The notes under the pieces: generated by a model
What the model was told of the DNA's origin: nothing
The model's database searches: none
What the model saw: the letters and a program-made list of their open reading frames with translations, nothing else
Part shown: positions 1 to 38,639 of the stretch, in pieces
Layout: every line of letters starts with the position of its first letter
How positions within the stretch are numbered: the stretch's first letter is position 1
Program-made: the position numbers and the translations under genes
Virus record (IMG/VR): IMGVR_UViG_3300029992_000006
Coordinates: 1-59,109 of that record
Source of the DNA: a virus
Taxonomy: Duplodnaviria; Caudoviricetes
Length of the DNA: 59,109 nt
Direction: 5' to 3' (one strand)

Positions 1-58
1 GTACAGTTCGCCCCCTATTGCGGGCTGTGCTATTTACTGTTGATTGCAACCAGTCAAA

Positions 59-370
59 ATGGAAGCCCCACTTAGTCTGACCTTGCTAACCCGTCGTCTA
101 TTAGGGTTAGACGACGGTCTATTAATGACGTTGGATGGCGACGGCTACGGTAGCGGCGGCAGCGGCTACGGCAACGGCTACGGCTACGGCGGCGGCGGCG
201 ACGGCGACGGCTACGGCGGCGGCAGCGACATCGGATACGGCTACGGCAGCGGCGGCAGCGGCTACGGCAACGGCTACGGCTACGGCGGCGGCGGCGACGG
301 CGACGGCTACGGCAGCGGCGACGGCGACGGCGACGGCGGCGGCAGCAGCGGCGACGGCTACGGCAACTAA
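59..370 (+). CDS. Gly-rich low-complexity peptide, cassette copy 1 (LTRRLLGLDDG-LMTLDG leader plus GYG/GDG tail)
   Basis: ATG59; N-terminal motif shared with ORFs at 1451 and 3177; stop followed by TAAGGAG. Confidence 0.55.
   Translation: MEAPLSLTLLTRRLLGLDDGLLMTLDGDGYGSGGSGYGNGYGYGGGGDGDGYGGGSDIGYGYGSGGSGYGNGYGYGGGGDGDGYGSGDGDGDGGGSSGDGYGN
86..145 (+). repeat. 60-nt conserved leader with hairpin, copy 1
   Basis: 3 mismatches to copy 3; arms CCGTCGTCTA 91-100 and TAGACGACGG 108-117. Confidence 0.95.
152..313 (+). repeat. 66-nt direct repeat inside the Gly tract (152-217 and 248-313)
   Basis: Identical copies 96 nt apart, each encoding SGGSGYGNGYGYGGGGDGDGYG. Confidence 0.9.
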
Positions 371-383
371 TAAGGAGAAAGAC

Positions 384-1220
384 ATGCTACAAAACCAAGC
401 CATGATAGCAAATCTCAACATTCGCTCTTGGACAGCGCGCAAGCACGACCGCGCTGTCTCCAACGAAGTGGACGCTGCTCACAACGCACAGGAAGGTGGA
501 CGCTACAACAAGCTGCTGATCGATAAGTCAGCACTCGACCCGCTCACCAAGCATGCAGGGCGTGTACGGGAATATCACTATTCCCTCACCTTGCCATGGG
601 GCGACAACGGCGACCGGCTACTACCAGCCAAGGCGTACATGGACTACACCGCAACTATGAGGAAACTAAAAGATGAATATGCGTCCTATGCTCGTACATT
701 TGAGGCTTCCTACCCCCAACTCGTTGCCGATGCTCGGCAGCGCCTGGGCACCATGTACGATGCCAACGATTATCCCCCTATCAGCGACATACGCGACCGC
801 TTTGATATCCGCGTGGCATTTCAACCAGTCCCTGACGCTAAGGACTTTCGCGTCGATGTGGGGGACGAAGCTCTAGCTGAGATCAAAGCGAGCATCAACG
901 AAGCCGTAGCGGAACGTCAAGCCGGCGCAGTCAAAGAGTGCTGGGTACGGCTCAACGATGTAATCGGCAAGCTGTACACCATGATGATCAAGGACAAGCC
1001 AATCTTTCGTGACAGCATCATCGACAACGTGAAGGACTTGATCAGTATGCTGCCAAAGCTGAATATCACGAACGATCCTGCATTAAACGAAGTCTGCAAA
1101 AAGGTGTCCTTAGTCGTCAACTCAACTTCGCCACATTATCTACGCAAAAGCGCACGAATGCGCAACGACGTGGCGCTGGCTGCAGAAGGGGTGCTGCGTG
1201 AAATCGCCGATCATACTTGA
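384..1220 (+). CDS. DUF3150-like phage protein
   Basis: TAAGGAG before ATG384; WTARK, TLPWGDNGDRLL and LPKLNITNDP motifs. Confidence 0.7.
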   Translation: MLQNQAMIANLNIRSWTARKHDRAVSNEVDAAHNAQEGGRYNKLLIDKSALDPLTKHAGRVREYHYSLTLPWGDNGDRLLPAKAYMDYTATMRKLKDEYASYARTFEASYPQLVADARQRLGTMYDANDYPPISDIRDRFDIRVAFQPVPDAKDFRVDVGDEALAEIKASINEAVAERQAGAVKECWVRLNDVIGKLYTMMIKDKPIFRDSIIDNVKDLISMLPKLNITNDPALNEVCKKVSLVVNSTSPHYLRKSARMRNDVALAAEGVLREIADHT

Positions 1221-1449
1221 TGAATTTACCGATATGGACCCGACAAGAGACCCAGGCTACACAGCCATGAAGAATGCCCTCCATCGAATGCGCAATGGAA
1301 CCGACCAATTTGCAACACAAGCGGCACAGATTCTGACGATGAACACCAGCCAACGGAAAGCCTTCTATCGGCGCATGAAGAACGGCATGAATACCCCATT
1401 CATCAACGAGGTGCGGATGCAGACATTGGTGATGCGGCTAGGAGGATGA
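1198..1449 (+). CDS. hypothetical protein
   Basis: Fills the operon; start uncertain. Confidence 0.6.
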   Translation: MKSPIILDEFTDMDPTRDPGYTAMKNALHRMRNGTDQFATQAAQILTMNTSQRKAFYRRMKNGMNTPFINEVRMQTLVMRLGG

Positions 1450-1450
1450 G

Positions 1451-1669
1451 ATGGATACCCTCTTTAAACTAACCCGTCGTCTATTGGGGCTAGACGACGG
1501 GATATTAATGACGTTGGATGGCGACGGCTACGGCAGCTACCACGGCAACGGCAGCGGCTACGGCGTCAGCGGCTACGGCGACGGCGGCGGCAGCGGCGGC
1601 GGCGTAGGCGGCGACGGCAACAACGGCTACGGCGACGGCGACGGCCATGGTAGAGGTTACGACAATTAA
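1451..1669 (+). CDS. Gly-rich peptide, cassette copy 2
   Basis: GGAGG SD before ATG1451; same leader; stop overlaps TAAGGAG. Confidence 0.65.
   Translation: MDTLFKLTRRLLGLDDGILMTLDGDGYGSYHGNGSGYGVSGYGDGGGSGGGVGGDGNNGYGDGDGHGRGYDN
1469..1528 (+). repeat. 60-nt conserved leader with hairpin, copy 2
   Basis: 11-bp arms 1473-1483 and 1491-1501; 1 mismatch to copy 3. Confidence 0.95.
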
Positions 1670-1679
1670 GGAGCAAGAA

Positions 1680-1901
1680 ATGGCCAAAACGGAATTACCG
1701 AAGACCCACTACTACGATATGGCACTTACCCTACTCGCACTGGAAAACAAGAAATGGATATCGAACAAAAATACATATAACCACTGGGACCCCGAAACGC
1801 GGCTCTGGTGGATCAAGCGAGTAGAGGAAGAAGCCGCTAAAGGCTTGCCAATGGCAACTGAATTGGTTGCCAAGGCATTGATGATAAGGATGACGAAATG
1901 A
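1680..1901 (+). CDS. hypothetical protein
   Basis: TAAGGAG before ATG1680. Confidence 0.7.
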   Translation: MAKTELPKTHYYDMALTLLALENKKWISNKNTYNHWDPETRLWWIKRVEEEAAKGLPMATELVAKALMIRMTK

Positions 1902-2077
1902 ATACACATTACAAAGTATATTGGGAGATCGATATTTTCGCCGACTCCCCAGAAGCTGCTGCAGAGGTAGCATTGATGGCCCAGCGCGACTCTTCCTCGA
2001 CATGCACCTATTTCACAGTGTACGATGTCCGTACCGGAACTTCGATTGACGTCGACCTAAACACAAGCGGAGAATAA
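1898..2077 (+). CDS. small hypothetical protein (MNTHYKVYWEIDIFADSPEAAA..., 59 aa)
   Basis: Read manually; ATGA overlap with the upstream gene; fills the gap to the vWA gene. Confidence 0.7.
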   Translation: MNTHYKVYWEIDIFADSPEAAAEVALMAQRDSSSTCTYFTVYDVRTGTSIDVDLNTSGE

Positions 2078-2078
2078 G

Positions 2079-3176
2079 ATGAACGAACAAGCCAAAGCCA
2101 AAACCAAGCTCACCCGCGCCCGAGCAACGCTGATCCTCGATCAGCCGTTCTTCGGTGCGCTGGCTCTGCGCCTGCACCTCGTCGAAGACGAAAACACAAA
2201 GACCATGTCTGTGGACGGTAAGACGATCCGCTACAACCCGGACTTCGTGAACGAGTGCAGCGCTGGCCTCACCAAAGCCGTCGTCGCCCATGAGGTCATG
2301 CACTGCGTCCTTGATCATATGGGACGGCTTGCCGAACGCGACCACCGTAAATGGAATCAGGCTGCAGACTACGCCATCAATCAGATTCTGGAAGATGTCG
2401 GTTTCAGCTTCGAAGGCACCGGCCTTCTCAACCCTGCATTCAAAGGTAAATCCGCTGACGAGATTTACACACTCCTGCCGGATACCCCAGAAGGGCAGAG
2501 CGACCCACTCGACAATATGACCCCAGGCGATCCTGACCCTGCGGCCAAGGCTGAAGCTGCGCGCGACTGGAAAGTTGCCACCATCCAAGCCAAGGAAGCT
2601 GCCAAGATCATGGGCAAGCTACCACAAGAAATCGAACGCCTGATCGATGGCCTGCTGGCCGCACAGGTCGACTGGAAAGAAGTCTTGCGCCGCTTCATCA
2701 ACGAACGCAGCAAGGACGACTACTCTTGGGCACGTCCGAACCGGCACATGATCGTGCATGGCGTGTACATGCCCAGCCTGTATAGCGAGAACATGGGCGA
2801 CATCGTGATCGGCATCGATACATCGGGCAGCATCAGCAACAAGGTACTGGAAAAATTCAGCGCGGAGTGCGACGGAATCATCGCTGAAACGCGACCGGCG
2901 AACGTGCATGTCATCTATTGTGATGCCGCTGTAAACCGGGTACAGGTCTTCGCTCGCGGCGAGCCATTTAAACTGGAAGCATGCGGCGGAGGTGGCACGC
3001 GGTTCTCGCCCGTATTTGAAAAGGTCGAAGAACTGGGCATCCGTCCGGTGTGCCTCGTCTACTTGACGGACTTGTACGGGGATCATTCTTTTGATCCTCC
3101 TGATTATCCGACGCTCTGGTGCTGCACGACTTACAATGTTGGGGCATTCGGCGAGACCGTAAGAATAGAGATTTAA
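2079..3176 (+). CDS. DUF2201-type HExxH metallopeptidase-like plus vWA domain protein
   Basis: AHEVMH; MIDAS DTSGS; GGGGT; YLTDLYG. Confidence 0.9.
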   Translation: MNEQAKAKTKLTRARATLILDQPFFGALALRLHLVEDENTKTMSVDGKTIRYNPDFVNECSAGLTKAVVAHEVMHCVLDHMGRLAERDHRKWNQAADYAINQILEDVGFSFEGTGLLNPAFKGKSADEIYTLLPDTPEGQSDPLDNMTPGDPDPAAKAEAARDWKVATIQAKEAAKIMGKLPQEIERLIDGLLAAQVDWKEVLRRFINERSKDDYSWARPNRHMIVHGVYMPSLYSENMGDIVIGIDTSGSISNKVLEKFSAECDGIIAETRPANVHVIYCDAAVNRVQVFARGEPFKLEACGGGGTRFSPVFEKVEELGIRPVCLVYLTDLYGDHSFDPPDYPTLWCCTTYNVGAFGETVRIEI

Positions 3177-3278
3177 ATGTGTGCCCTCGTTAAACTAACC
3201 CGTCGTCTATTGGGGTTAGACGACGGGATATTAATGACGTTGGATGGCGACGGCGACGGCTACGGCAGCGGTAGTTAA
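3177..3278 (+). CDS. Gly-rich peptide, cassette copy 3 (33 aa, MCALVKLTRRLLGLDDGILMTLDGDGDGYGSGS)
   Basis: Read manually; ATG directly after the vWA stop; stop overlaps TAAGGAG. Confidence 0.55.
   Translation: MCALVKLTRRLLGLDDGILMTLDGDGDGYGSGS
3195..3254 (+). repeat. 60-nt conserved leader with hairpin, copy 3
   Basis: Arms CCCGTCGTCTA 3199-3209 and TAGACGACGGG 3217-3227. Confidence 0.95.
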
Positions 3279-3286
3279 GGAGAAAT

Positions 3287-3684: not shown

Positions 3685-4093
3685 ATGGGCTACCGTTCAG
3701 ATGTCGCATACGTGATCGCCGGCAAGAAGGAAGCCATCATTGCCTTCCTGCTGGTGTGCAAAATGGATCACCCTGAGGTCAACCTCGCTATCGACGAATG
3801 TACAATCGGAAGACTGGAGAAAGGCGTGCTTTTCATCGGGTTCTGCGCCAGCGATGTGAAGTGGTGTCCTAATTACGAAGACGTTAAATGTCATGACGTT
3901 CTTTGGAGTCTCGCCCAAGACCAAGAAACCTTGGAAGGTCAAAAGTGCATTATCGGAGAAGACGACAACGACATCACCAATGATAATTTTGGGGGATGGT
4001 GAGTTTGAGCTTTGGAGCCGTTTATCGATTAGTCGTAGCCTCAACATTGATCTGAATCTTGGAAAAGAGCATGATATACGGGAGACAGCATGA
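3685..4093 (+). pseudogene. MGYRSDV-type phage protein, apparently frameshifted at T4G5 (3987-3995)
   Basis: ORF stops at 4002; the +1 frame continues to a stop overlapping the next ATG (4090-4093). Confidence 0.55.
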
Positions 4094-4797
4094 GCGGAAT
4101 TAAGGAGCAAATGGAAGTGGCGTATGCTCTATCAGATTGCATACTCGCCGAAGTCGAACAAACCGAGTTCACATTCGATGAACTTTCCGAACGCGCCAAG
4201 GAAAAGGTGCGCGGTAGGTACCGCGAAACCCAGCTCGACTATGAATGGTGGGAGTATGTATATGAGGACGCTGTAACGCTCGGCGCATTAATCGGTATTG
4301 AGGTCGGGACAAATAGATCAGCTCCGAAGAACGGAAAATCCTACACTGAACCAGACATCAGTTTCTCTGGCTTCTGCAATCAAGGTGACGGCTGCTGCTA
4401 CTCCGGCACTCTCCACATTGATCAACTGCAAGGATGCGAGGCTAAGGTCAAGGCAGAATGCAGTGACCCCCTTCTACTCAGCATAGCCAGAGATGGAGAA
4501 GCCTTGTTTCGAGACATTCTGGTCGCCCGTGTCGCTCAACGTATGCAAGGTGTGGCAAGCGAGGACGCCATGACTGAATACAGCCGTTTCAGCATCATCG
4601 GTAATAGCCGGTATTACGCCACATGCACGGATAACGACGACGAACAATTCGACCTCGATGACTACGTCTCATCATTCGCCGACTGGATTTACGGACGCCT
4701 CGAAGCCGAGCATGACTACCTAATGAGCGATGAATGTATCGACGAGTCGATCAAGCAGTATGAGACGCTTTATGACGAATTCGGCTCTGAAGTCTAA
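4090..4797 (+). CDS. acidic hypothetical phage protein
   Basis: GGAG SD; 235 aa; YEWW, FSGF-QGDG and LEAEHDYL motifs. Confidence 0.8.
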   Translation: MSGIKEQMEVAYALSDCILAEVEQTEFTFDELSERAKEKVRGRYRETQLDYEWWEYVYEDAVTLGALIGIEVGTNRSAPKNGKSYTEPDISFSGFCNQGDGCCYSGTLHIDQLQGCEAKVKAECSDPLLLSIARDGEALFRDILVARVAQRMQGVASEDAMTEYSRFSIIGNSRYYATCTDNDDEQFDLDDYVSSFADWIYGRLEAEHDYLMSDECIDESIKQYETLYDEFGSEV

Positions 4798-4933: not shown

Positions 4934-4958
4934 TTTTTTTTTTTTTTTTTTTTTTTTT
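4934..4958 (+). repeat. poly-T homopolymer, 25 nt
   Basis: Counted directly. Confidence 0.9.
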
Positions 4959-19661: not shown

Positions 19662-22600
19662 CTACTCCGACACTGGCTCGGACGGCCCACCCGCTGAATG
19701 ACCCTTACCGCCTGTGTCCAGCCAGTCATTAAACGGTACAGGCATGAGTGCGTTGGCGTACTGCGACGACCCGCCACCACTGCCCACCGCTCTCGCCAGC
19801 CGTTCAATTTCCGACACATCAGGCCCGAGTGCATTGAGATAACCACCGTGTGACCGGATGCCGTTGAACTCGTCAGCGGCGTACTGACCAGTGGACAGCA
19901 GCCCCGCTCGTGAAGTCTCGTGTGCCAGCCAGTCGCCCGTGTCCCAGTTCTGCTGGTACGCCGGCATCGACCCGCCGCCTATTATATACGCCTTCATCAT
20001 GTCCGCAGCGAACATCACCGGTACGTAAGCGCCGAGCGCGACGAGAGGCTGGTTGTTTCCGTGCGCAGCTTCATGGGCCACGCGCTTGAGGATCGTGTCG
20101 TGAAACGCGTAGGTGTACGACTTCATGTGCGCCATCAACGCGAAGTACGGGTCGTTCATCCATGTGGCCTTCTTCGTGGCGTCAGGCCGAACCACCGCGC
20201 CGTCCACCCAAGTGTTGACCGCCATCTTCATCTTGGCGACCTGCGTGTCGACCTTCGCCTCTAGCGCGTCGCCGGAAATCCCCTGCGTCTTAAAGTGTTC
20301 CCGCAGCTCGTCGGCGTCCGTAACCAGCTCGCCGTTCTTCACGACCGCTTCGCCCTTCTTCAGCCCCAGCTCCTCCATGTACCGTGCGCTGTGCCCGTTG
20401 TAGCCGTCGTTGTGACGAGCGATGAACTTCGCCGCCGCCACCGCCGCGCCTGCGCGCATGTTCCGGCCCTGCTGCTCCATCAGGTTATACTTGAACAGCA
20501 TGTCGTTGACTCTGCGCGACCAGTTCCCCAGCCCAGTCACACCGTAAGCCGACTGCACCGCATGGCCCAGCATGGCGTTCTCGATCACGCCCATGTCCTC
20601 GGCGAATTTATCCTTGGCGTCAGGCTTCGAGTCGGTGATCAGATTTTTGGCTATCTTAAAGATGCCGTCCTTGTACGCGCTGGCCGCGTCGCCCCATGTA
20701 CCGCCGCGTACCTTGATGCCTATCGGGTCAACCATCCCGGAGAACCAGCCCAACCCCAGCACGCGCAGGTTGTTGGCGACCATGAGGCCGGACATCAGCC
20801 TGCGGGCCTTCGGTGACAGCTCACTACCCAGCGAGCCGTTCACGCCGTTCATGTAGTTGTCGAACTGTTTGATCTGCTCGTCCGTGGCACCGTGTTTGAG
20901 AATAGCCTGCTGCCGTGCAGCGTTGATCTTCCCGTTGTCGTCGTCGAACCGCGCCGCCCACTCTGCCCGCTTGATGCCCTGGTGAACATAGGATGACATC
21001 ACGCGCATCGGGTCGTCGATCAAGAATGGTGCGCGCTCGGCGGCGGTGAAGTGCTTGAATACTCGCTCCTTGGCGAACACGTTGCCGGGTTTCGTATCGG
21101 GGCGCACGTCCTGGATGCCCAGCTCGTTGCCGTCGTTGCGCATCAGGTGATTCATGATACTCTGCGGGGTACCGTCGAACCCTTCGCGCCTGATCGCCTC
21201 CGCAGCCATCTTCAGAAACTCGGGCTGGTGGCCGGCAATGTAAGCAGCGTCCCACTGCACAGGGGTGTGGTCCTTGATGAACCCGATCTTCACCCCAGCC
21301 TTCGTCATGCCGTCATACACGTCCGTGAGCGTCTTGCGCAGGATCGCCTTGATCTCCGCGTGCTCAGGAGTATCGACCTGCCCTTTTTCTCTGGTCTGCA
21401 TCTGCGCCCACGCCGCTTTCTTGTCGGCGTCGGAGAACTTCGACAATGAAGCCGCCAACTGATTCATCGTGTCACGCGCCTTCTGCGTGTAAGTCGGAAT
21501 GAACCCGCGATCCTCGCCTGTACGATTGGCGTGCTGGCCGGTCAAGTCCACCATTTTCGTCAGCGGGTCGATGTTCATGTCCCGGATACCTTGGCTACCG
21601 ATCCCCAACACCCGCTGTCCGAGGTTGTACATCGGCTTCATCGCTTCGCCGATGTGGTGCAGCGACTCGTTCCTGCCTGCTCTGATCAGCGCGTTATGCA
21701 CGGCGCTGCGGTCGCCGATATTCCTCACCACGTCGCCGGAGCTGAAATACTTCATGATCTGCACGGCACGCTCGTCGGAAGTCCAGATACCCAGCGTGCG
21801 CTTGATGAAGTCGCCGATGCGCTGGAATATGCCCTTGACCTCGCCGCCGACCTTCAGCTTGCCGGCCTCGTGGAACTGATACATGTAGGCAGCACGCTCC
21901 TCGGCGCTATCCTGGCACTGCTTCCACGCAGCTGGCTCATCCTTCAGCAGCTCGCGCAGCTGGCCCCTGACGGACGGGGAGGAAGCCGTTTTCGCCAGCG
22001 CGTCGTTGACCTCCTTCATGCCCATCTTGCGCATGTGGTCGAAGAGCGCGTGCATGGACTCATGCAGCGCCACGCTCCCAGGGTCTTTTGCGAAGACTGA
22101 CACCTTGATCCCAGCTCGGGCCAGCCCGTCAGCAAGCTGCGGCGTGAATTCTCCCGCGTGCTTCATGGTGCTGCTGAACATCCTGGACACCAGCGGCCCG
22201 AGCCGGTCATTGATGATCTTGGCGACCTCGGCTTTCTGCGCGTCGGTGATTCGCCCGGTACCAATCGCTGTGTCGGACTTGGAAGCGTCGGCTTTCCACT
22301 CCCCGGCCAGCGCTTGTTTCGCCGGGTCCATGCCGATCAGTTGATCAGGATCGTGAGCGATCAGGTCGGAGATTTTTGTGTTGAGGGCATCGACAACCTG
22401 CTTGGTGTTGGCATCGCGCTCCCAGCCTTTTTTGTCGACCAGTCGGGACACGGCAGACTGCAGACTTTTCGCGTCGGTGGACGCTTTCACGCGTTCAAGC
22501 GTGGCGTCACGGCCTGCGTCGGTCTTAACGGTATCTCTGAATGCCTTGGCAACCTGCGCCTCGGTCTTCGGGAACACGCGCGGCTTACCTTCCGCAGCGA

Positions 22601-25600
22601 GGGCGGCGTTGCTCTTGGCGAGCTTGTTCTGGCTGGCATCGAGGGACTTGGTTAAGCCGTCTATCGTGCCGCCCACAGCCTCGATCCGCTTGGTGTCTTT
22701 CAGCTCGCTGTACAGCTTGGCCTGATCCTTCGGCGGCATCTTATCCCAGTTCTTCAGCAGCCCACGCGCCTGCGCGATGACGGCGCGGTCGCTCGCACTT
22801 TTGGCACCGACGCCAAGTGAGTTAATCTTGGTCTCCACGAGGGACTTGCCCAGAGCGTTGACCTCGCCGTTCTTGTCTAGTCCTCTCGCTTTATCAGCGA
22901 TGGCGTGGTTCGGCACAGCGTCGGCAGCGTCGATCCCGCGCACCGCAGCGGAAACCCTACCGAGATCGTCACCATGCTCTTTGTCGGCGAGGTGGATATT
23001 ATCGTCGTTGGGGTCAATCTCGGTTCTACCTAACCCCGGCTCGCCAGCTTCCTTGATCTGGTCGCCGCCCTGAAAGTCCGGTGCCCAGTCAGCTGGTTTT
23101 ACCCGTTGTGGGTCGCCGCTCTTGACCGCTTCGAATCGAGCGGTCTCCGCGCGTGCGTCAGCCCCGGCCTGGATTCTGTCAGCGCTGGCACTTTTCTGGT
23201 CGGCGTTGACCTTCTCCCACCCGAGGTCGTAAGCGTCAGCCCCTTTAAACCCAGCGGCCTTCATTCTGGCGGTCACTTCATTCAGCCAATGTTTCGCCTC
23301 GGCGGCAGCTTTCGGCCCCAGCCCCTTAGCCGCGCTGACCTTTTTCACGGCTTCGACGGTGGTTTTGATCTCAGCGTCCGACATGCCGAGTTTCTTCTGC
23401 ACCTTGGATACGTTGGCCTGATGGTTGCTCGCCTCCACATCCAGCGTGGATATGGCGCGACGCTGTTCGGCGTTGGACATCGGCTCTTTAGCAGTCTTGC
23501 CGGTGGCGTCGGCCTTGTCCAGCTCACTGCCCATATCAGGCCGCTCAAGCGCCGGCAGATTTTTCAGGTCGCCGTAAGTCACACCCTTGGCAACCACTGT
23601 GCTGTCGCTCGGCTCGATGCGGGCACCAAGGCGATCAGATAGAGCAGCCACGCCCGCATGAAAGTTATCTCGCAGCGCGTGCAGCTTCTCGTTCCTCGCT
23701 TGCGCCGGATCGCCCACGCTCTCGCTGACATCACTGTGGCCCATCTTGCGCTGAATGACACCAGCGATCCGCTTGGCGTCCAGGTTGAGCGTCTTGCCGT
23801 CGCCGCCCTTGACCTCCATGCGGCTGTCGGAGTTCGGGTATTTGTCCGTGTCCAACTTCATGTTCTGCACGTCGTCGGCAGTGAAGGCGTCGCGGCTCGT
23901 GCGCCCCTTCGCCGTGACCAGCCCGTAGTTCTCCGGCTTGCCCTTCGTCTGCGCGTTCAGTTTCGTGGCCGGTACGCCATTCTCTCTGGCGTGGTCCGTA
24001 GCGGAAACCCAGCCGATGGCTGCGTCAGGATGAGCAGCTGCGGCCTGTGCTGCGACATCCGACGCCGTGCTGCGTGTGGCGTCGCCATATTCGGCCTTGT
24101 GGGCCTCGTCACTCAGCATGTACTGCGGGTTCGCCTTGTCCTTGCCCTGGCCGTAATAGTTCGTGTACTCCGGGTCAGTTGCGTCGAACGACGCGCCGGG
24201 GTCTACTCCGGGGGCATCACTCAGCTCGCTCTCGCTCTTGGCCGCGCCGGTAACGGACGAACCTTCGTCGCTGATCTCGCTGCCTTTTTCGCTCTCGAAC
24301 AAATCGCTGACCTGCCGAGGATCGTTGAAGGTGTCCCGCATCACGTTGTCGATATGCTCCGTCAACATCTTGCTCTCGGCAGGATTCAGCCCTCTCGTCA
24401 AGTCGTCGTTAAAATACGACTTCAAATAGGGGATCAACTGATTAACGTAACCGGGCTGCACGTCTTTGTCTTTCAGCATGCCGGTCAGGCTGTCCGTCAG
24501 CGTCTTCTTGTCGCTCGCCGCTTTCATGACCTGATTTACCGCCGTCAGGAAATTGTCTTTGCCCTCCCCCGGCTCCATCTCACCGTACATGTGAACTAGC
24601 GCTGTTGGCGGCTTGCCGTTATCCTGCAGCATATCGGCGACATCCTGCACACGCCACGGTTCAACCTTGCCTGCCTTGGCTTTCGCCACGAACGCCGCCA
24701 GTGTTTTAGCGTCGTCCGCAGCCGCACCTTCAGGAGCGTTGGTGCTCATCATGCTCATGCTGACATCAGGGGGCAGTTCATCCGGCAGCGGCGGCTCATC
24801 AGCAGGCAGGTTCTTCGGCGCTCTCTCCGCACGACGGCGAGCCATCGCTGCATTCGTCGCGTCGTCCTTGGCCTTGATATCGGCCTGCAGCTGGTCCATC
24901 GCCATCATGGCTTCTTCAGGCGGCTTGCCTTCAGCCGCTGCTGCGAGATCGGGAGGCGCGGGCGGAGTGAACACTTTCGTCGCTGCGTCCATGCGCGCAC
25001 CGAGCGGCGCGGACTCCGACGTACCCAAATCATCGGGTGCAGGCACCGCTGGTTTGTCCAGCGCCACCGGCACTCCGCTGCTCTTGCTGACCGCTCCATC
25101 CTTCCCATTGCCGAACACCTTGCTGGTTATGCTGCCGCTGGCGGCTTCACCGGGTTTTGGTTCGGCTTTCGCGCCCCGCATGTCACCGGCAGCGCCCAGC
25201 ACGCCGAACGGCGCACCCATAGCACCGCCCTCAATAGCCGCTTGCTTGTCCTCTTCCAGATCGTTCGACGCGTCGCGGTTAGGGTTTAAATGGCTCGCCG
25301 CCTGATGGCCGATCTCCGTTGACGCAGCCATCGCTGCAGCGTTGCCGGCCACCGCGCCCGGTACGTTGTGGGCCAGTCCCTCAAGGAATGGCGTAGCAGT
25401 TTTAGCAACACCTTCGACGGCGGGAGCCAAGAACTTACTCTCAATCGTGCCAGGGGCAGCAGCCGTAACAAGGGACTGTAGGCCCCCGCCAACGCCTGCG
25501 GTAAGGGTTCGGTCCAGCCACGGCTTTTTAGCCTGTTCTGGGTCGTTTTGCTGGGCCTGAAGCTGCTCTCCGATCATGCCGGGAGCCATACCGGCAGCGT

Positions 25601-25991
25601 TGCCGAGCACCGCGCCCTCTGCGGACACTCCACCGGGGAAATACCTTGCGGCGAGTGCTCCGGCTGCGCCTGCGGCGACGGTCGGTGCCATCGCGCCGAG
25701 GTTGTACATGCCCCAGTTACCGAAGTCGCGAAGGCCATGCACATCGGAGAAATGCTGCACTGCACCTTGAGAGTCAGCCGCAGCTGCCTGCTGGTTGGCT
25801 ACGGACTGCGCACGCTGGTCTGCGGCGAACTGATCGGCCCCTAAGCCCTCACCGGCCTGACCGAGCAGCTGGTGGGTTTGGCTTTTGACGCCTTCCCAGC
25901 CTGCACGGAGACCCTTAACTAATGATCCATCCCCACCCGTCGCGTCCGTGGAGTAGGTCGGAGCTGGCATCAAGTCCTGGAGGCCAGCCAT
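19662..25991 (-). CDS. large internal virion/ejection protein (polyvalent type, HExxH domain)
   Basis: 2109 aa; last gene of the late operon; Ala/Gly-rich hydrophobic N-terminus; VALHESMH. Confidence 0.75.
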   Translation of the reverse strand: MAGLQDLMPAPTYSTDATGGDGSLVKGLRAGWEGVKSQTHQLLGQAGEGLGADQFAADQRAQSVANQQAAAADSQGAVQHFSDVHGLRDFGNWGMYNLGAMAPTVAAGAAGALAARYFPGGVSAEGAVLGNAAGMAPGMIGEQLQAQQNDPEQAKKPWLDRTLTAGVGGGLQSLVTAAAPGTIESKFLAPAVEGVAKTATPFLEGLAHNVPGAVAGNAAAMAASTEIGHQAASHLNPNRDASNDLEEDKQAAIEGGAMGAPFGVLGAAGDMRGAKAEPKPGEAASGSITSKVFGNGKDGAVSKSSGVPVALDKPAVPAPDDLGTSESAPLGARMDAATKVFTPPAPPDLAAAAEGKPPEEAMMAMDQLQADIKAKDDATNAAMARRRAERAPKNLPADEPPLPDELPPDVSMSMMSTNAPEGAAADDAKTLAAFVAKAKAGKVEPWRVQDVADMLQDNGKPPTALVHMYGEMEPGEGKDNFLTAVNQVMKAASDKKTLTDSLTGMLKDKDVQPGYVNQLIPYLKSYFNDDLTRGLNPAESKMLTEHIDNVMRDTFNDPRQVSDLFESEKGSEISDEGSSVTGAAKSESELSDAPGVDPGASFDATDPEYTNYYGQGKDKANPQYMLSDEAHKAEYGDATRSTASDVAAQAAAAHPDAAIGWVSATDHARENGVPATKLNAQTKGKPENYGLVTAKGRTSRDAFTADDVQNMKLDTDKYPNSDSRMEVKGGDGKTLNLDAKRIAGVIQRKMGHSDVSESVGDPAQARNEKLHALRDNFHAGVAALSDRLGARIEPSDSTVVAKGVTYGDLKNLPALERPDMGSELDKADATGKTAKEPMSNAEQRRAISTLDVEASNHQANVSKVQKKLGMSDAEIKTTVEAVKKVSAAKGLGPKAAAEAKHWLNEVTARMKAAGFKGADAYDLGWEKVNADQKSASADRIQAGADARAETARFEAVKSGDPQRVKPADWAPDFQGGDQIKEAGEPGLGRTEIDPNDDNIHLADKEHGDDLGRVSAAVRGIDAADAVPNHAIADKARGLDKNGEVNALGKSLVETKINSLGVGAKSASDRAVIAQARGLLKNWDKMPPKDQAKLYSELKDTKRIEAVGGTIDGLTKSLDASQNKLAKSNAALAAEGKPRVFPKTEAQVAKAFRDTVKTDAGRDATLERVKASTDAKSLQSAVSRLVDKKGWERDANTKQVVDALNTKISDLIAHDPDQLIGMDPAKQALAGEWKADASKSDTAIGTGRITDAQKAEVAKIINDRLGPLVSRMFSSTMKHAGEFTPQLADGLARAGIKVSVFAKDPGSVALHESMHALFDHMRKMGMKEVNDALAKTASSPSVRGQLRELLKDEPAAWKQCQDSAEERAAYMYQFHEAGKLKVGGEVKGIFQRIGDFIKRTLGIWTSDERAVQIMKYFSSGDVVRNIGDRSAVHNALIRAGRNESLHHIGEAMKPMYNLGQRVLGIGSQGIRDMNIDPLTKMVDLTGQHANRTGEDRGFIPTYTQKARDTMNQLAASLSKFSDADKKAAWAQMQTREKGQVDTPEHAEIKAILRKTLTDVYDGMTKAGVKIGFIKDHTPVQWDAAYIAGHQPEFLKMAAEAIRREGFDGTPQSIMNHLMRNDGNELGIQDVRPDTKPGNVFAKERVFKHFTAAERAPFLIDDPMRVMSSYVHQGIKRAEWAARFDDDNGKINAARQQAILKHGATDEQIKQFDNYMNGVNGSLGSELSPKARRLMSGLMVANNLRVLGLGWFSGMVDPIGIKVRGGTWGDAASAYKDGIFKIAKNLITDSKPDAKDKFAEDMGVIENAMLGHAVQSAYGVTGLGNWSRRVNDMLFKYNLMEQQGRNMRAGAAVAAAKFIARHNDGYNGHSARYMEELGLKKGEAVVKNGELVTDADELREHFKTQGISGDALEAKVDTQVAKMKMAVNTWVDGAVVRPDATKKATWMNDPYFALMAHMKSYTYAFHDTILKRVAHEAAHGNNQPLVALGAYVPVMFAADMMKAYIIGGGSMPAYQQNWDTGDWLAHETSRAGLLSTGQYAADEFNGIRSHGGYLNALGPDVSEIERLARAVGSGGGSSQYANALMPVPFNDWLDTGGKGHSAGGPSEPVSE

Positions 25992-37424: not shown

Positions 37425-38639
37425 TTACGCGTTGGGGTTATAGACGTATCCTGTACCGTCCGCGTCCAGCGTGTGGTAGCGGTCGGAGTACACGTGAGCA
37501 CCATTAACGAATGTGCCGTTACCAGATTCATCAAGCGGCTCGGGGATCGCCGAGTTCCACGCCTTGAACGACGATATTCCGGCAAAAGCGTACCCGAACT
37601 TGATGGACGCAGCGACCGAGTTGATCGCGTGCGCGCAGATGCCAGCGGTTGACCGTGACCCTAGCCACGCGGAGTTTGACGTGTAATATGGATAATCGTT
37701 CAGGGTGACAGCGTAGGTATTGCCGGTCGCAGTAAGCACCATCGTATTCTGACCGACGACGATCATTGTGCTGGGAGTTTCCCCGGCAGGCCCTATAGTC
37801 TCCACAGGGAAGCTAAAACCCTGCATGTCGCCGAACTCACTATTCGCTAAAACCCCACCGGGGAAGGTTTGCGTTGCTCCGACGATAGGTACGGTATCGG
37901 CAACAGCTACGCATGCGCCGACGATCCCGGCACCTGTTCCGCCGCAGATAATGCCAGCGCTGGTGACGAGGGCTGGGGCGACGGAGGCCGGAAAATTGAA
38001 TTGTCCATACCCAGCCGCTGCAACCTGGCTTGCTTGTACGGATATAACACCATTGAGAGCGGCGAGGGCGGCTTTGGCATCGGCGGCGCTGACGGCAGCG
38101 GCGGCTACGGCAGCGGTGTAGGCGGCATAGGCGTAGCCGCCGTCGGCGGCGCTGACGGCAGCGGCGGCGGCGGCGGCGGCTACGGCGGCGGCGGCGGCGG
38201 CGACGGCGGCGGGTTCGACGGCGGCTATGTACCCAGCGCCAACTGTGTTGGCCACGTTAAAGACTATCGCCGCCGTGAAATTCGGTGGTAGGGAGCCAAG
38301 ATAAGAGTTCGTTATGCGCGGAGTAGCTCCGAGCTGGTTACTTACGCCAGAATACCCAACTATGCTGAGACCCGCGTAAGTCGATGATAAGGAATTGATC
38401 AGCGTATCCTGCGCCACTCCAGTCGGGTCGCGGCTGAATGGAACTGCTTGGTTACTGCGTATCGCCCAACTGCCTGTAGTGTCGCTCCAGTAGCCGCCGA
38501 GACCTTCAGCGTCCGCACGGTCAAACATGTCAACGGCGAAATCGATCGCAGAACCGGTCGATTTCGCCGCGTTATTCTGCTTCATTATGGACGCGACCAT
38601 CGCCCGAATCTGGTACAGCAGTGTAGTGTCGAAGCTCAT
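37425..38639 (-). CDS. probable structural protein with poly-Ala insert
   Basis: 404 aa; GAGG SD; D.FDRAD...LG motif. Confidence 0.65.
   Translation of the reverse strand: MSFDTTLLYQIRAMVASIMKQNNAAKSTGSAIDFAVDMFDRADAEGLGGYWSDTTGSWAIRSNQAVPFSRDPTGVAQDTLINSLSSTYAGLSIVGYSGVSNQLGATPRITNSYLGSLPPNFTAAIVFNVANTVGAGYIAAVEPAAVAAAAAAVAAAAAAAAVSAADGGYAYAAYTAAVAAAAVSAADAKAALAALNGVISVQASQVAAAGYGQFNFPASVAPALVTSAGIICGGTGAGIVGACVAVADTVPIVGATQTFPGGVLANSEFGDMQGFSFPVETIGPAGETPSTMIVVGQNTMVLTATGNTYAVTLNDYPYYTSNSAWLGSRSTAGICAHAINSVAASIKFGYAFAGISSFKAWNSAIPEPLDESGNGTFVNGAHVYSDRYHTLDADGTGYVYNPNA

What the first reader, a model, noticed from the sequence alone, without database searches (positions are those of the whole stretch)
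59..3286. Three-copy cassette: conserved hairpin/peptide leader, length-variable GGC-NNC tract, TAAGGAG and a cargo gene
Seen: a 60-nt leader recurs at 86, 1469 and 3195 (1-4 mismatches between copies). Each copy is followed by a tract of GGC alternating mainly with TAC/GAC/AGC/AAC, about 220, 140 and 20 nt long. The tract ends in a stop at or next to TAAGGAG, the SD of an unrelated gene (384, 1680, 3287). Differences between leaders are synonymous or L/I in the frame LTRRLLGLDDG(I/L)LMTLDG and leave a 10-11-bp hairpin intact, so both peptide and structure appear constrained. Inference: a modular element I cannot assign to a named family. Options are (a) a Gly-codon leader peptide that tunes downstream translation, (b) a family of variable Gly/Tyr-rich effector peptides with a fixed docking head, or (c) a recombination handle for shuffling early genes.
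Basis: partly seen in the sequence, partly recalled or inferred. Interest (0 to 1): 0.85.

Follow-up and report, generated by a model that had tools for sequence, protein, structure and literature searches.

The report
Phage small-protein family with glycine-repeat tails
The three repeated "cassettes" are three copies of a small, unnamed phage gene whose protein has a conserved 25-residue head and a fast-changing glycine/tyrosine/aspartate repeat tail; the family is new to the databases and its function is unknown.

Summary
A 27-nt hairpin pattern occurs three times on the + strand, with 0 expected by chance. Each copy is followed by a Gly-codon tract and a stop next to TAAGGAG.

The copies are the 5' ends of three ORFs of 103, 72 and 33 aa. 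Related Oxalobacteraceae prophages carry 2-4 copies each.

Selection acts on the peptide:
- Head dN/dS is 0.07 between genomes. Variable columns by codon position are 8/4/19.
- Gly codons are GGC here, GGG in a Janthinobacterium prophage and mixed in a third phage.

The 11-bp hairpin exists only in this window, with no compensatory pairs.

No Pfam, PHROG, NCBIfam, PDB or Rfam match was found. Only 9 representatives turned up among 1.84 billion proteins.

Best reading: a narrow family of disordered early phage proteins with a docking head and a repeat tail that evolves by slippage and gene conversion. That it is a coding family is well supported. The mechanism is inferred. Interest is moderate.

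The parts
59..370 (+). Copy 1 gene (w1), 103 aa: head 59-139, (Gly-X)n tail 140-367, stop 368-370 and a second TAA at 371-373
   Evidence: ORF and translation. Its start overlaps the end of an upstream ORF that is cut by the window start (3-80). The tail holds a 96-nt unit repeated 2.4 times.
1451..1669 (+). Copy 2 gene (w2), 72 aa: head 1451-1522, tail 1523-1666
   Evidence: GGAGGA lies 5 nt upstream of the ATG. The tract is bridged at equal length by a contig of run X13.
3177..3278 (+). Copy 3 gene (w3), 33 aa: head 3177-3248, 9-residue tail 3249-3275. It starts directly after the stop of the DUF2201 gene.
   Evidence: The exact protein is on record from 25 contigs, longest 66,961 nt.
91..117 (+). 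Hairpin inside the head codons (Arg-Arg-Leu pairing with Leu-Asp-Asp-Gly codons), copy 1
1473..1501 (+). Same hairpin in copy 2, 11-bp stem and 7-nt loop
   Evidence: The scan also calls it terminator-like on the minus strand.
3199..3227 (+). Same hairpin in copy 3
384..1220 (+). DUF3150-like gene. A family copy lies directly upstream of it in 4 of 4 genomes.
   Evidence: Pfam match below cut-off, E 5.6e-4. Orthologues at 36-69% identity. Junctions.
2079..3176 (+). DUF2201 gene: HExxH metallopeptidase-like domain plus VWA-like domain with an intact DxSxS motif. It is flanked by family copies.
4090..4797 (+). 235-aa phrog_5162 protein. A family copy lies directly upstream in the 3 relatives; here three small genes lie between.

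Best explanation
The three 'cassettes' are three paralogous protein-coding genes of a small, unnamed phage family (33-130 aa). Each protein has two parts. The first is a conserved N-terminal head of about 25 residues: a short basic helix followed by Gly-Leu-x-Asp-Gly-x-Leu-x-Thr-Leu-Asp-Gly. The second is an acidic, aromatic-bearing (Gly-X)n tail that is predicted to be disordered. The genes sit in the +-strand early/replication block of an integrase-bearing phage of Oxalobacteraceae. They are tightly packed with their neighbours, so the stop next to TAAGGAG is ordinary operon packing. Shown here: coding, peptide-level constraint on the head, composition-level constraint on the tail, tail turnover by tandem duplication, and homogenisation of paralogues within a genome. 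Inferred: the head is a docking motif for one conserved partner, from the phage or the host, and the tail is a generic, multivalent, sticky or metal-binding disordered module. On this reading the proteins act as early effectors or scaffolds, not as RNA or DNA signals. The long hairpin is a lineage-specific by-product, possibly an imperfect inverted repeat made perfect and then spread by gene conversion. My odds: about 0.9 for the coding-family part and about 0.3 for the docking-head/effector-tail mechanism.
For: Distribution:
- 11 copies in 4 phage genomes: 3 in the window, 2 in L004/L020, 4 in L012 and 2 in L019.
- 9 further members are known as proteins. All 20 have the head plus a Gly-rich tail.

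Head:
- dN/dS is 0.067 between genomes and 0.13 within.
- Variable columns by codon position are 8, 4 and 19 of 19 each.

Tail:
- Gly codons are 40 of 42 GGC in w1. They are 23 of 24 and 32 of 34 GGG in L019, and mixed GGC/GGT/GGA/GGG in L012b-d.
- Across the 20 members the tails are 24-56% Gly, 10-20% aromatic, 9-22% acidic and 0-7% basic. Net charge is always negative, from -2 to -13.

Structure and turnover:
- AF2 gives only a helix at residues 2-11, with mean pLDDT 43.6.
- w1 holds a 96-nt tandem unit.
- Within-genome head pairs share on average 50.0 of 60 nt. Same-position pairs between genomes share 43.0, and different-position pairs 42.9.

Context:
- Two positions are conserved: upstream of the DUF3150-like gene, and upstream of the phrog_5162 gene.
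- The head was found in no protein longer than 94 aa in a length-unrestricted profile search of 1.84 billion representatives. That search gave 9 hits.
Against: - No partner is known.
- No direct proof of translation. The RNA-library contigs cover only 519-815 and 1658-1827 and may be DNA carry-over.
- The 33-aa copy has almost no tail, so either the tail is dispensable or that copy is decaying.
- In this window several substitutions all strengthen the stem relative to the relatives' state. This could mean the hairpin is used in this lineage.
- The tight stop-SD-start junction is shared between paralogues: an identical 20 nt in L004a and L004b. This is also what a translational-coupling device would look like.
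Confidence: 0.6

Rival explanations
1. Translational-coupling leader ORFs. The peptide is secondary, and the ORF with its run of Gly codons delivers or meters ribosomes to the strong SD of the next gene.
For: The stop lies 5-20 nt before the next start in 10 of 11 copies; the eleventh (L012a) overlaps the next family copy. TAAGGAG overlaps or abuts the stop in all 3 window copies. The stop-SD-spacer is identical in L004a and L004b although the downstream genes differ. There are 20-40 Gly codons of a single type per tract in 3 genomes.
Against: The head peptide is under strong purifying selection, which a mere ribosome shuttle does not need. The Gly codon differs between lineages and is mixed in L012. 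Non-Gly tail composition is conserved. Tail length ranges from 9 to 76 codons. No +-strand terminator lies between the ORF and the next gene. Tight junctions are normal in phage operons.
Confidence: 0.12
2. Processed peptide precursors, RiPP-like. The conserved head is a leader that is cut off after Thr-Leu-Asp-Gly, perhaps by the neighbouring HExxH protein, and the variable tail is the product.
For: Several paralogues per genome have a near-invariant leader and hypervariable C-terminal parts. The family flanks a putative metallopeptidase gene in 4 of 4 genomes.
Against: No maturation enzyme or export system appeared among the 45 window ORFs scanned. About 11% of the genome is missing. The tails share no set of modifiable residues: Ser and Cys are absent from the L004b tail. 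There is no double-glycine-type site. The DUF2201 module occurs in 463 phage records, while tblastn with w2 and with its head found no family member in that collection.
Confidence: 0.07
3. A nucleic-acid element. The palindrome is an operator, an antisense terminator or a recombination site, and the ORF is incidental.
For: The perfect 10-11-bp inverted repeat occurs 3 times and nowhere else in 59 kb, with z -3.4 to -4.2. The scan calls copies 2 and 3 terminator-like on the minus strand. Recombination between copies is evident.
Against: The repeat is absent from all 8 copies in the 3 related genomes. There are no compensatory pairs, and pairing equals the shuffled control. The three window copies are not independent, because they homogenise each other. 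Peptide conservation explains the residual 5-bp complementarity of the Arg and Asp-Gly codons.
Confidence: 0.08
4. Junk. These are expanding simple repeats in decaying ORFs with no function.
For: The tails are simple repeats of very unequal length. One copy is only 33 aa.
Against: Head dN/dS is 0.07. The family persists at two syntenic positions in 4 genomes. Tail composition is held while codons change.
Confidence: 0.05

Closest known systems
Multi-copy RiPP precursor families (prochlorosin / Nif11- and NHLP-type leaders; recalled, not searched)
   Same: Several paralogues per genome, with a near-invariant N-terminal part and hypervariable C-terminal parts.
   Different: No modifying enzyme or transporter was seen. 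There is no double-glycine site. The variable part is a low-complexity Gly-X repeat with no shared modifiable residues. The genes sit in a phage replication operon.
Prion-like / FUS-type low-complexity domains and Gly/Tyr-rich proteins (recalled)
   Same: Gly-rich spacers carry regularly spaced Tyr/Phe and polar Asn/Ser/His residues. There are almost no aliphatic or basic residues, and disorder is predicted.
   Different: The tails are acidic (9-22% Asp/Glu), very short and phage-encoded. Self-association is untested. One survey of prokaryote and phage low-complexity regions reports aromatic residues and Asn as heavily under-represented there (PMC6821194, passages seen), so this composition is atypical.
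Phage DUF7666 proteins with repeat tails (e.g. ES18 gp53)
   Same: These are small phage early-operon proteins built from an N-terminal domain plus a low-complexity repeat tail. 22 of the 58 hits are DUF7666 proteins; the two fetched (P0002, P0011) carry Gly-Tyr-Gly-Asp tails like these. ES18 gp53 lies just after the antiterminator gene.
   Different: The head is unrelated: a 95-aa folded domain against a 25-aa motif. ES18 gp53 has a different repeat. Their function is also unknown.
Amino-acid-operon leader peptides / attenuators (recalled)
   Same: A short ORF with a run of one codon lies directly upstream of another gene.
   Different: There are no alternative terminator/antiterminator hairpins. 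The peptide head is conserved, and the codon identity is not conserved between lineages.

Membership tests
Leader-peptide transcription attenuator | Short ORF with a run of regulatory codons | tested here: met
   Gly codons number 42, 23 and 4 in the three window tails, nearly all GGC.
Leader-peptide transcription attenuator | Alternative terminator/antiterminator structures between the leader ORF and the regulated gene | tested here: not met
   The stop lies 8-13 nt from the next ATG in the window. No +-strand terminator-like site lies there.
RiPP precursor family | Conserved leader, hypervariable core, several paralogues | tested here: met
   Alignments A1 and A2.
RiPP precursor family | Cognate maturation enzyme, leader peptidase or exporter encoded nearby | tested here: inconclusive
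   No known RiPP enzyme appeared among the 45 window ORFs scanned. A putative HExxH protein is adjacent. About 11% of the genome is missing.
Twin-arginine (Tat) signal peptide | Ser/Thr-Arg-Arg-x-Phe-Leu-Lys-type motif followed by an uncharged hydrophobic stretch and an Ala-x-Ala site (recalled definition) | tested here: not met
   Thr-Arg-Arg-Leu-Leu-Gly-Leu is present, but the following 11 residues hold 2-3 Asp and there is no Ala-x-Ala.
Structured RNA / conserved regulatory hairpin | Structure kept in relatives, with compensatory changes | tested here: not met
   0 pairs changed on both sides. 73.6% of cells are paired against 73.1% in shuffles. Relatives have z +0.2 to -2.5 and different folds. 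No Rfam match.
Prion-like low-complexity domain | Gly/Ser/Asn-rich sequence with spaced aromatic residues and few charged or aliphatic residues | tested here: inconclusive
   Gly is 24-56%, aromatic 10-20% and aliphatic 0-22%, but Asp/Glu reach 9-22%.
Prion-like low-complexity domain | Self-association or phase separation | not testable with these tools
   Needs purified protein or imaging.
RTX-type calcium-binding repeats | Nine-residue Gly-Gly-x-Gly-x-Asp-x-hydrophobic-x repeat (recalled definition) | tested here: not met
   The period is 2 (Gly-X), with no hydrophobic position. Asp-x-Asp/Asn/Ser-x-Asp/Asn/Ser-Gly strings occur 0-3 times per tail.
Any curated protein family (Pfam, PHROGs, NCBIfam, PDB sequences) | Significant profile match | tested here: not met
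   Pfam gave 0 families. PHROGs gave only E 0.08-0.64 on tails. NCBIfam gave only a low-complexity hit far below cut-off. PDB gave 0.

The most novel reading that the evidence does not exclude
The family is a phage-encoded 'sticker-and-spacer' scaffold. The constant head docks on a replication-module protein, for example the MIDAS-bearing VWA/metallopeptidase protein or the DUF3150-like protein that the copies flank. The Tyr/Asp/Asn/His-Gly tails then drive multivalent self-assembly, possibly bridged by Ca2+ or Zn2+, into a condensate that organises or shields early phage functions. Paralogues with different tails would tune its properties.
Probability: 0.1. Interest if true: 0.8.

Novelty: new variant of a known kind. 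Interest (0 to 1): 0.45.

Why it matters
Small phage early proteins are a main source of host-takeover and anti-defence factors, and most have no known function. This family gives an unusually clear read-out. The head is a short linear motif under strong purifying selection. It is joined to a tail where only composition is kept and where turnover can be seen happening, with the same peptide repeat built from GGC in one phage and GGG in another. That makes it a tractable case for asking what disordered Gly/Tyr/Asp tails do in bacteria. It is also a warning for annotation. Gene callers may miss these ORFs or misread them: in this window the Ala/Thr frame of the tract runs open into the next gene. 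If the function proves generic, the same tail type on unrelated phage domains such as DUF7666 would extend the finding well beyond this clade.

Tried and rejected
- Nucleotide and protein searches of cultured phages found nothing for the region, for w2 or for its head. The exact hairpin pattern is absent from IMG/VR.
- Rfam and tRNA scans found nothing.
- Complex prediction of w2 with the DUF3150-like and DUF2201 proteins gave no verdict: score 0.01 against a mark of 0.32. This is evidence neither for nor against binding.
- The AF2 model of the DUF3150-like protein was good (pLDDT 86), but Foldseek against the PDB gave nothing at E <= 0.001. The neighbour therefore gives no functional lead.
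- The ESM Atlas returned only unnamed, mostly viral clusters at 0.94. That is a lead and not evidence.
- Literature searches returned no paper on such proteins. They covered DUF7666, six tail-motif strings, 'bacteriophage + glycine-tyrosine', 'prophage + glycine-rich + tyrosine-rich', DUF3150 and DUF2201. Supplements are closed and subscription journals are not covered.
- Read-level tract-length variation could not be assessed, because all four runs laid are kept as contigs, which break at the tracts. The parts without RNA cover say nothing.
- A fusion of the tract's Ala/Thr frame with the DUF3150-like gene (ORF 135-1220) is rejected. That frame is closed in L004 (my reading of the junction), and no longer ORF in that frame is listed in L004, L012 or L019.
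- A Tat signal, RTX repeats and a G-quadruplex role were considered and rejected. Only L019 has GGG runs.
Full report
**What is there.** The window is a 59,109-bp IMG/VR virus record, linear and estimated 89% complete.

Its + strand from 1 to about 19.4 kb carries replication and recombination genes:
- a DUF3150-like gene;
- a DUF2201 metallopeptidase/VWA gene;
- an HNH_3+AP2 endonuclease;
- a PD-(D/E)XK exonuclease;
- a helicase and a family-A DNA polymerase;
- an Rv2179c-like exonuclease;
- an integrase and a ligase.

The minus strand from 19.7 to 57 kb carries the terminase, portal, major head and tail genes.

The 27-nt hairpin pattern occurs at 91, 1474 and 3200 on the + strand, with 0 matches in 100 shuffles. 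Repeat finders recover the 93-nt leader family and the 6-, 12-, 33- and 96-nt periodicities of the tracts.

The leaders are the 5' parts of three ORFs: 59-370 (103 aa), 1451-1669 (72 aa) and 3177-3278 (33 aa). Each begins with Met plus 3-7 residues. The head then reads Leu-Thr-Arg-Arg-Leu-Leu-Gly-Leu-Asp-Asp-Gly-(Ile/Leu)-Leu-Met-Thr-Leu-Asp-Gly and continues into a (Gly-X)n tail.

**Is the assembly sound?** The region is held by 22 peat-metagenome runs at half or more of the sampled words. I laid 4 of the 24 runs listed: X13 and X16 (DNA) and X23 and X24 (RNA libraries).

- In X13 and X16, contigs at 100% identity link each head copy to its own unique upstream sequence (1-140, 370/406-1520, 1658/1966-3246).
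- One X13 contig crosses the copy-2 tract with the same 124 nt.
- No contig crosses 141-369, so the length of the longest tract is unverified.
- Contigs run on beyond the window's first base, so copy 1 is not at a genome end.
- RNA-library contigs cover 519-815 and 1658-1827 only. That is a weak hint of transcription at best.

**Relatives.** Searching with the neighbouring proteins and then with the family alignment found three further phage lineages:
- L004/L011/L022, which equals L020, in a 136-kb contig of Herminiimonas sp. CN;
- L012/L021;
- L019, which equals L024, in a 144-kb contig of a Janthinobacterium MAG.

They hold 2, 4 and 2 copies.

Other loci with homologues of the DUF3150-like or DUF2201 genes showed no copy in my Gly-richness scan (L005-L010, L013-L018).

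Protein searches added members known only as proteins. P0003, P0005, P0006, P0007 and P0010 are among the 19 sequences I fetched of the 58 hits. P0059-P0062 come, sequences.

The profile search of 1.84 billion representatives had no length limit. It returned only 9 proteins at E <= 0.001. All are 33-94 aa and all have a head plus a Gly-rich tail. The family is narrow, and the head is not a piece of any larger protein in that library.

**Peptide or nucleic acid?** Three tests agree on the peptide.

1. Over the 19 head codons of the 11 DNA copies, pS is 0.68 and pN 0.11 between genomes, giving dN/dS 0.067. All 19 third positions vary, against 4 second positions. The four L012 copies encode almost the same head with many synonymous differences.

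2. The tail keeps its peptide pattern while the DNA repeat changes. Gly is GGC in the window and L004. It is GGG in L019 (23 of 24 and 32 of 34). It is a mixture of all four codons in L012b-d.

   Across 20 members the tails are 24-56% Gly, 10-20% aromatic, 9-22% acidic and 0-7% basic, and always net negative.

3. The hairpin is not conserved. On the 11-sequence alignment no pair changes on both sides. 73.6% of cells pair, against 73.1% in shuffles. Four of the 11 pairs are unpaired in 7-8 of the 11 sequences.

   Fold z-scores are -3.4 to -4.2 for the window's copies. For the 8 relatives they are +0.2 to -2.5, with different predicted folds.

The short complementarity left in the relatives comes from the Arg and Asp-Gly codons. 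Compared with the relatives' state, the window lineage has several changes that all extend the stem, one of them the Thr-to-Asp replacement.

That could reflect use of the hairpin in this lineage. It could also be a single templated correction of an imperfect inverted repeat, a mechanism I recall and did not test. Because the three copies homogenise each other, they count as one event.

**Evolutionary dynamics.** Two genomic positions are conserved.
- A copy lies directly upstream of the DUF3150-like gene in 4 of 4 genomes.
- A copy lies directly upstream of a roughly 235-aa phrog_5162 protein in the 3 relatives. In the window three small genes lie between.

Yet head DNA is more alike within a genome than between positional counterparts. 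The means are 50.0 of 60 within a genome (n=11), 43.0 between same-position pairs (n=12) and 42.9 between different-position pairs (n=12). Six of the 8 positional copies have a same-genome copy as their nearest.

L019a and L019b even share a long tail segment. L004a and L004b share the 20 nt from the stop through the SD to the next ATG.

So the paralogues undergo gene conversion, and the tails grow by tandem duplication: w1 holds a 96-nt unit at 2.4 copies and 88% matches.

**What it may do.** No family or structure matches. That covers Pfam, PHROGs, NCBIfam, PDB sequences and Rfam. AF2 predicts only a helix at residues 2-11 and disorder beyond, with mean pLDDT 43.6.

The head carries Lys/Arg-Arg among Leu/Phe residues, and the tail is acidic. 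I read the head as a short linear docking motif and the tail as a generic disordered module. Tyr/Phe/His 'stickers' sit between Gly spacers and Asp/Asn/Ser residues.

That composition is known from self-associating low-complexity domains and from divalent-cation loops. Both comparisons are recalled and were not tested.

The neighbouring DUF2201 protein keeps its HExxH motif and an invariant Asp-x-Ser-x-Ser motif. It would be a plausible partner or protease, but the complex job gave no verdict. I found no maturation enzymes among the 45 window ORFs scanned.

The attenuator reading fails for lack of any terminator/antiterminator space. A plain coupling role cannot be excluded, but it does not explain the conserved head.

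**A wider pattern.** Many tail-only hits are unrelated small proteins with the same kind of tail. Of the 58 hits, 22 carry DUF7666. That domain is found in 60 cultured-phage records. One is ES18 gp53, which sits in the early-left operon and has a different repeat.

One published survey reports that phage low-complexity regions are rare and average 33 aa. It also reports aromatic residues and Asn as heavily under-represented in them (PMC6821194, passages seen). Tyr- and Asn-rich tails of up to 76 residues are therefore atypical.

**Verdict.**
The feature is a peptide family with a fixed head, and the hairpin is not conserved.
- The family is real, new to the databases searched here, narrow and of unknown function.
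- I rate it a new variant of a known kind, namely small phage early proteins built from a head plus a low-complexity tail. Interest is moderate.

Noticed in passing
window 4934-4958: A run of 25 T lies 15 nt upstream of the ATG (4974) of an HNH_3+AP2 endonuclease gene. That gene is inserted between the phrog_5162 and PD-(D/E)XK genes. It could be a homopolymer artefact or a real tract.
   Followed up: no
L019 8060-8205 and 12655-12850: In the Janthinobacterium prophage the tails are built from (GGG-NAC)n. This gives regular G3-N3 runs on the coding strand, a G-quadruplex-like pattern. It is absent from the window, where the unit is GGC-NAC.
   Followed up: partly
window 1501-1473 and 3227-3199 (minus strand): The head hairpins of copies 2 and 3 are followed on the minus strand by a weak T-rich run, and the scan calls them terminator-like. 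They could stop antisense read-through from the late operon.
   Followed up: no
window 135-1220: The Ala/Thr-reading frame of the copy-1 tract is open into the DUF3150-like gene, giving a spurious 361-aa ORF. The frame is closed in L004. This may explain why the exact 103-aa and 72-aa proteins are not in the protein collection while the 33-aa one is.
   Followed up: partly
L004 5984-6003 and 9094-9113: The two copies of the Herminiimonas prophage share an identical 20 nt from the stop through the SD to the ATG of two unrelated downstream genes. The converted unit therefore includes the next gene's ribosome-binding site.
   Followed up: partly
proteins P0002, P0011 and 20 others; L023 1501-2349: DUF7666 proteins, a phage domain, carry Gly-Tyr-Gly-Asp tails like those here. 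ES18 gp53 has the same domain with a different 9-residue repeat and lies just after the antiterminator gene.
   Followed up: partly
window 1-30: A terminator-like hairpin on the + strand lies just upstream of copy 1, inside the 3' end of an ORF cut by the window start. Contigs of other runs continue upstream of base 1.
   Followed up: no
window 37425-38639 (minus strand): A 404-aa protein without a PHROG match has a long Ala/Val-rich low-complexity stretch. Its opposite strand reads as a Gly-rich ORF, which my scan first flagged.
   Followed up: no
window 19662-25991 (minus strand): A 2,109-aa ORF lies at the start of the late block. I did not scan it against any family library.
   Followed up: no
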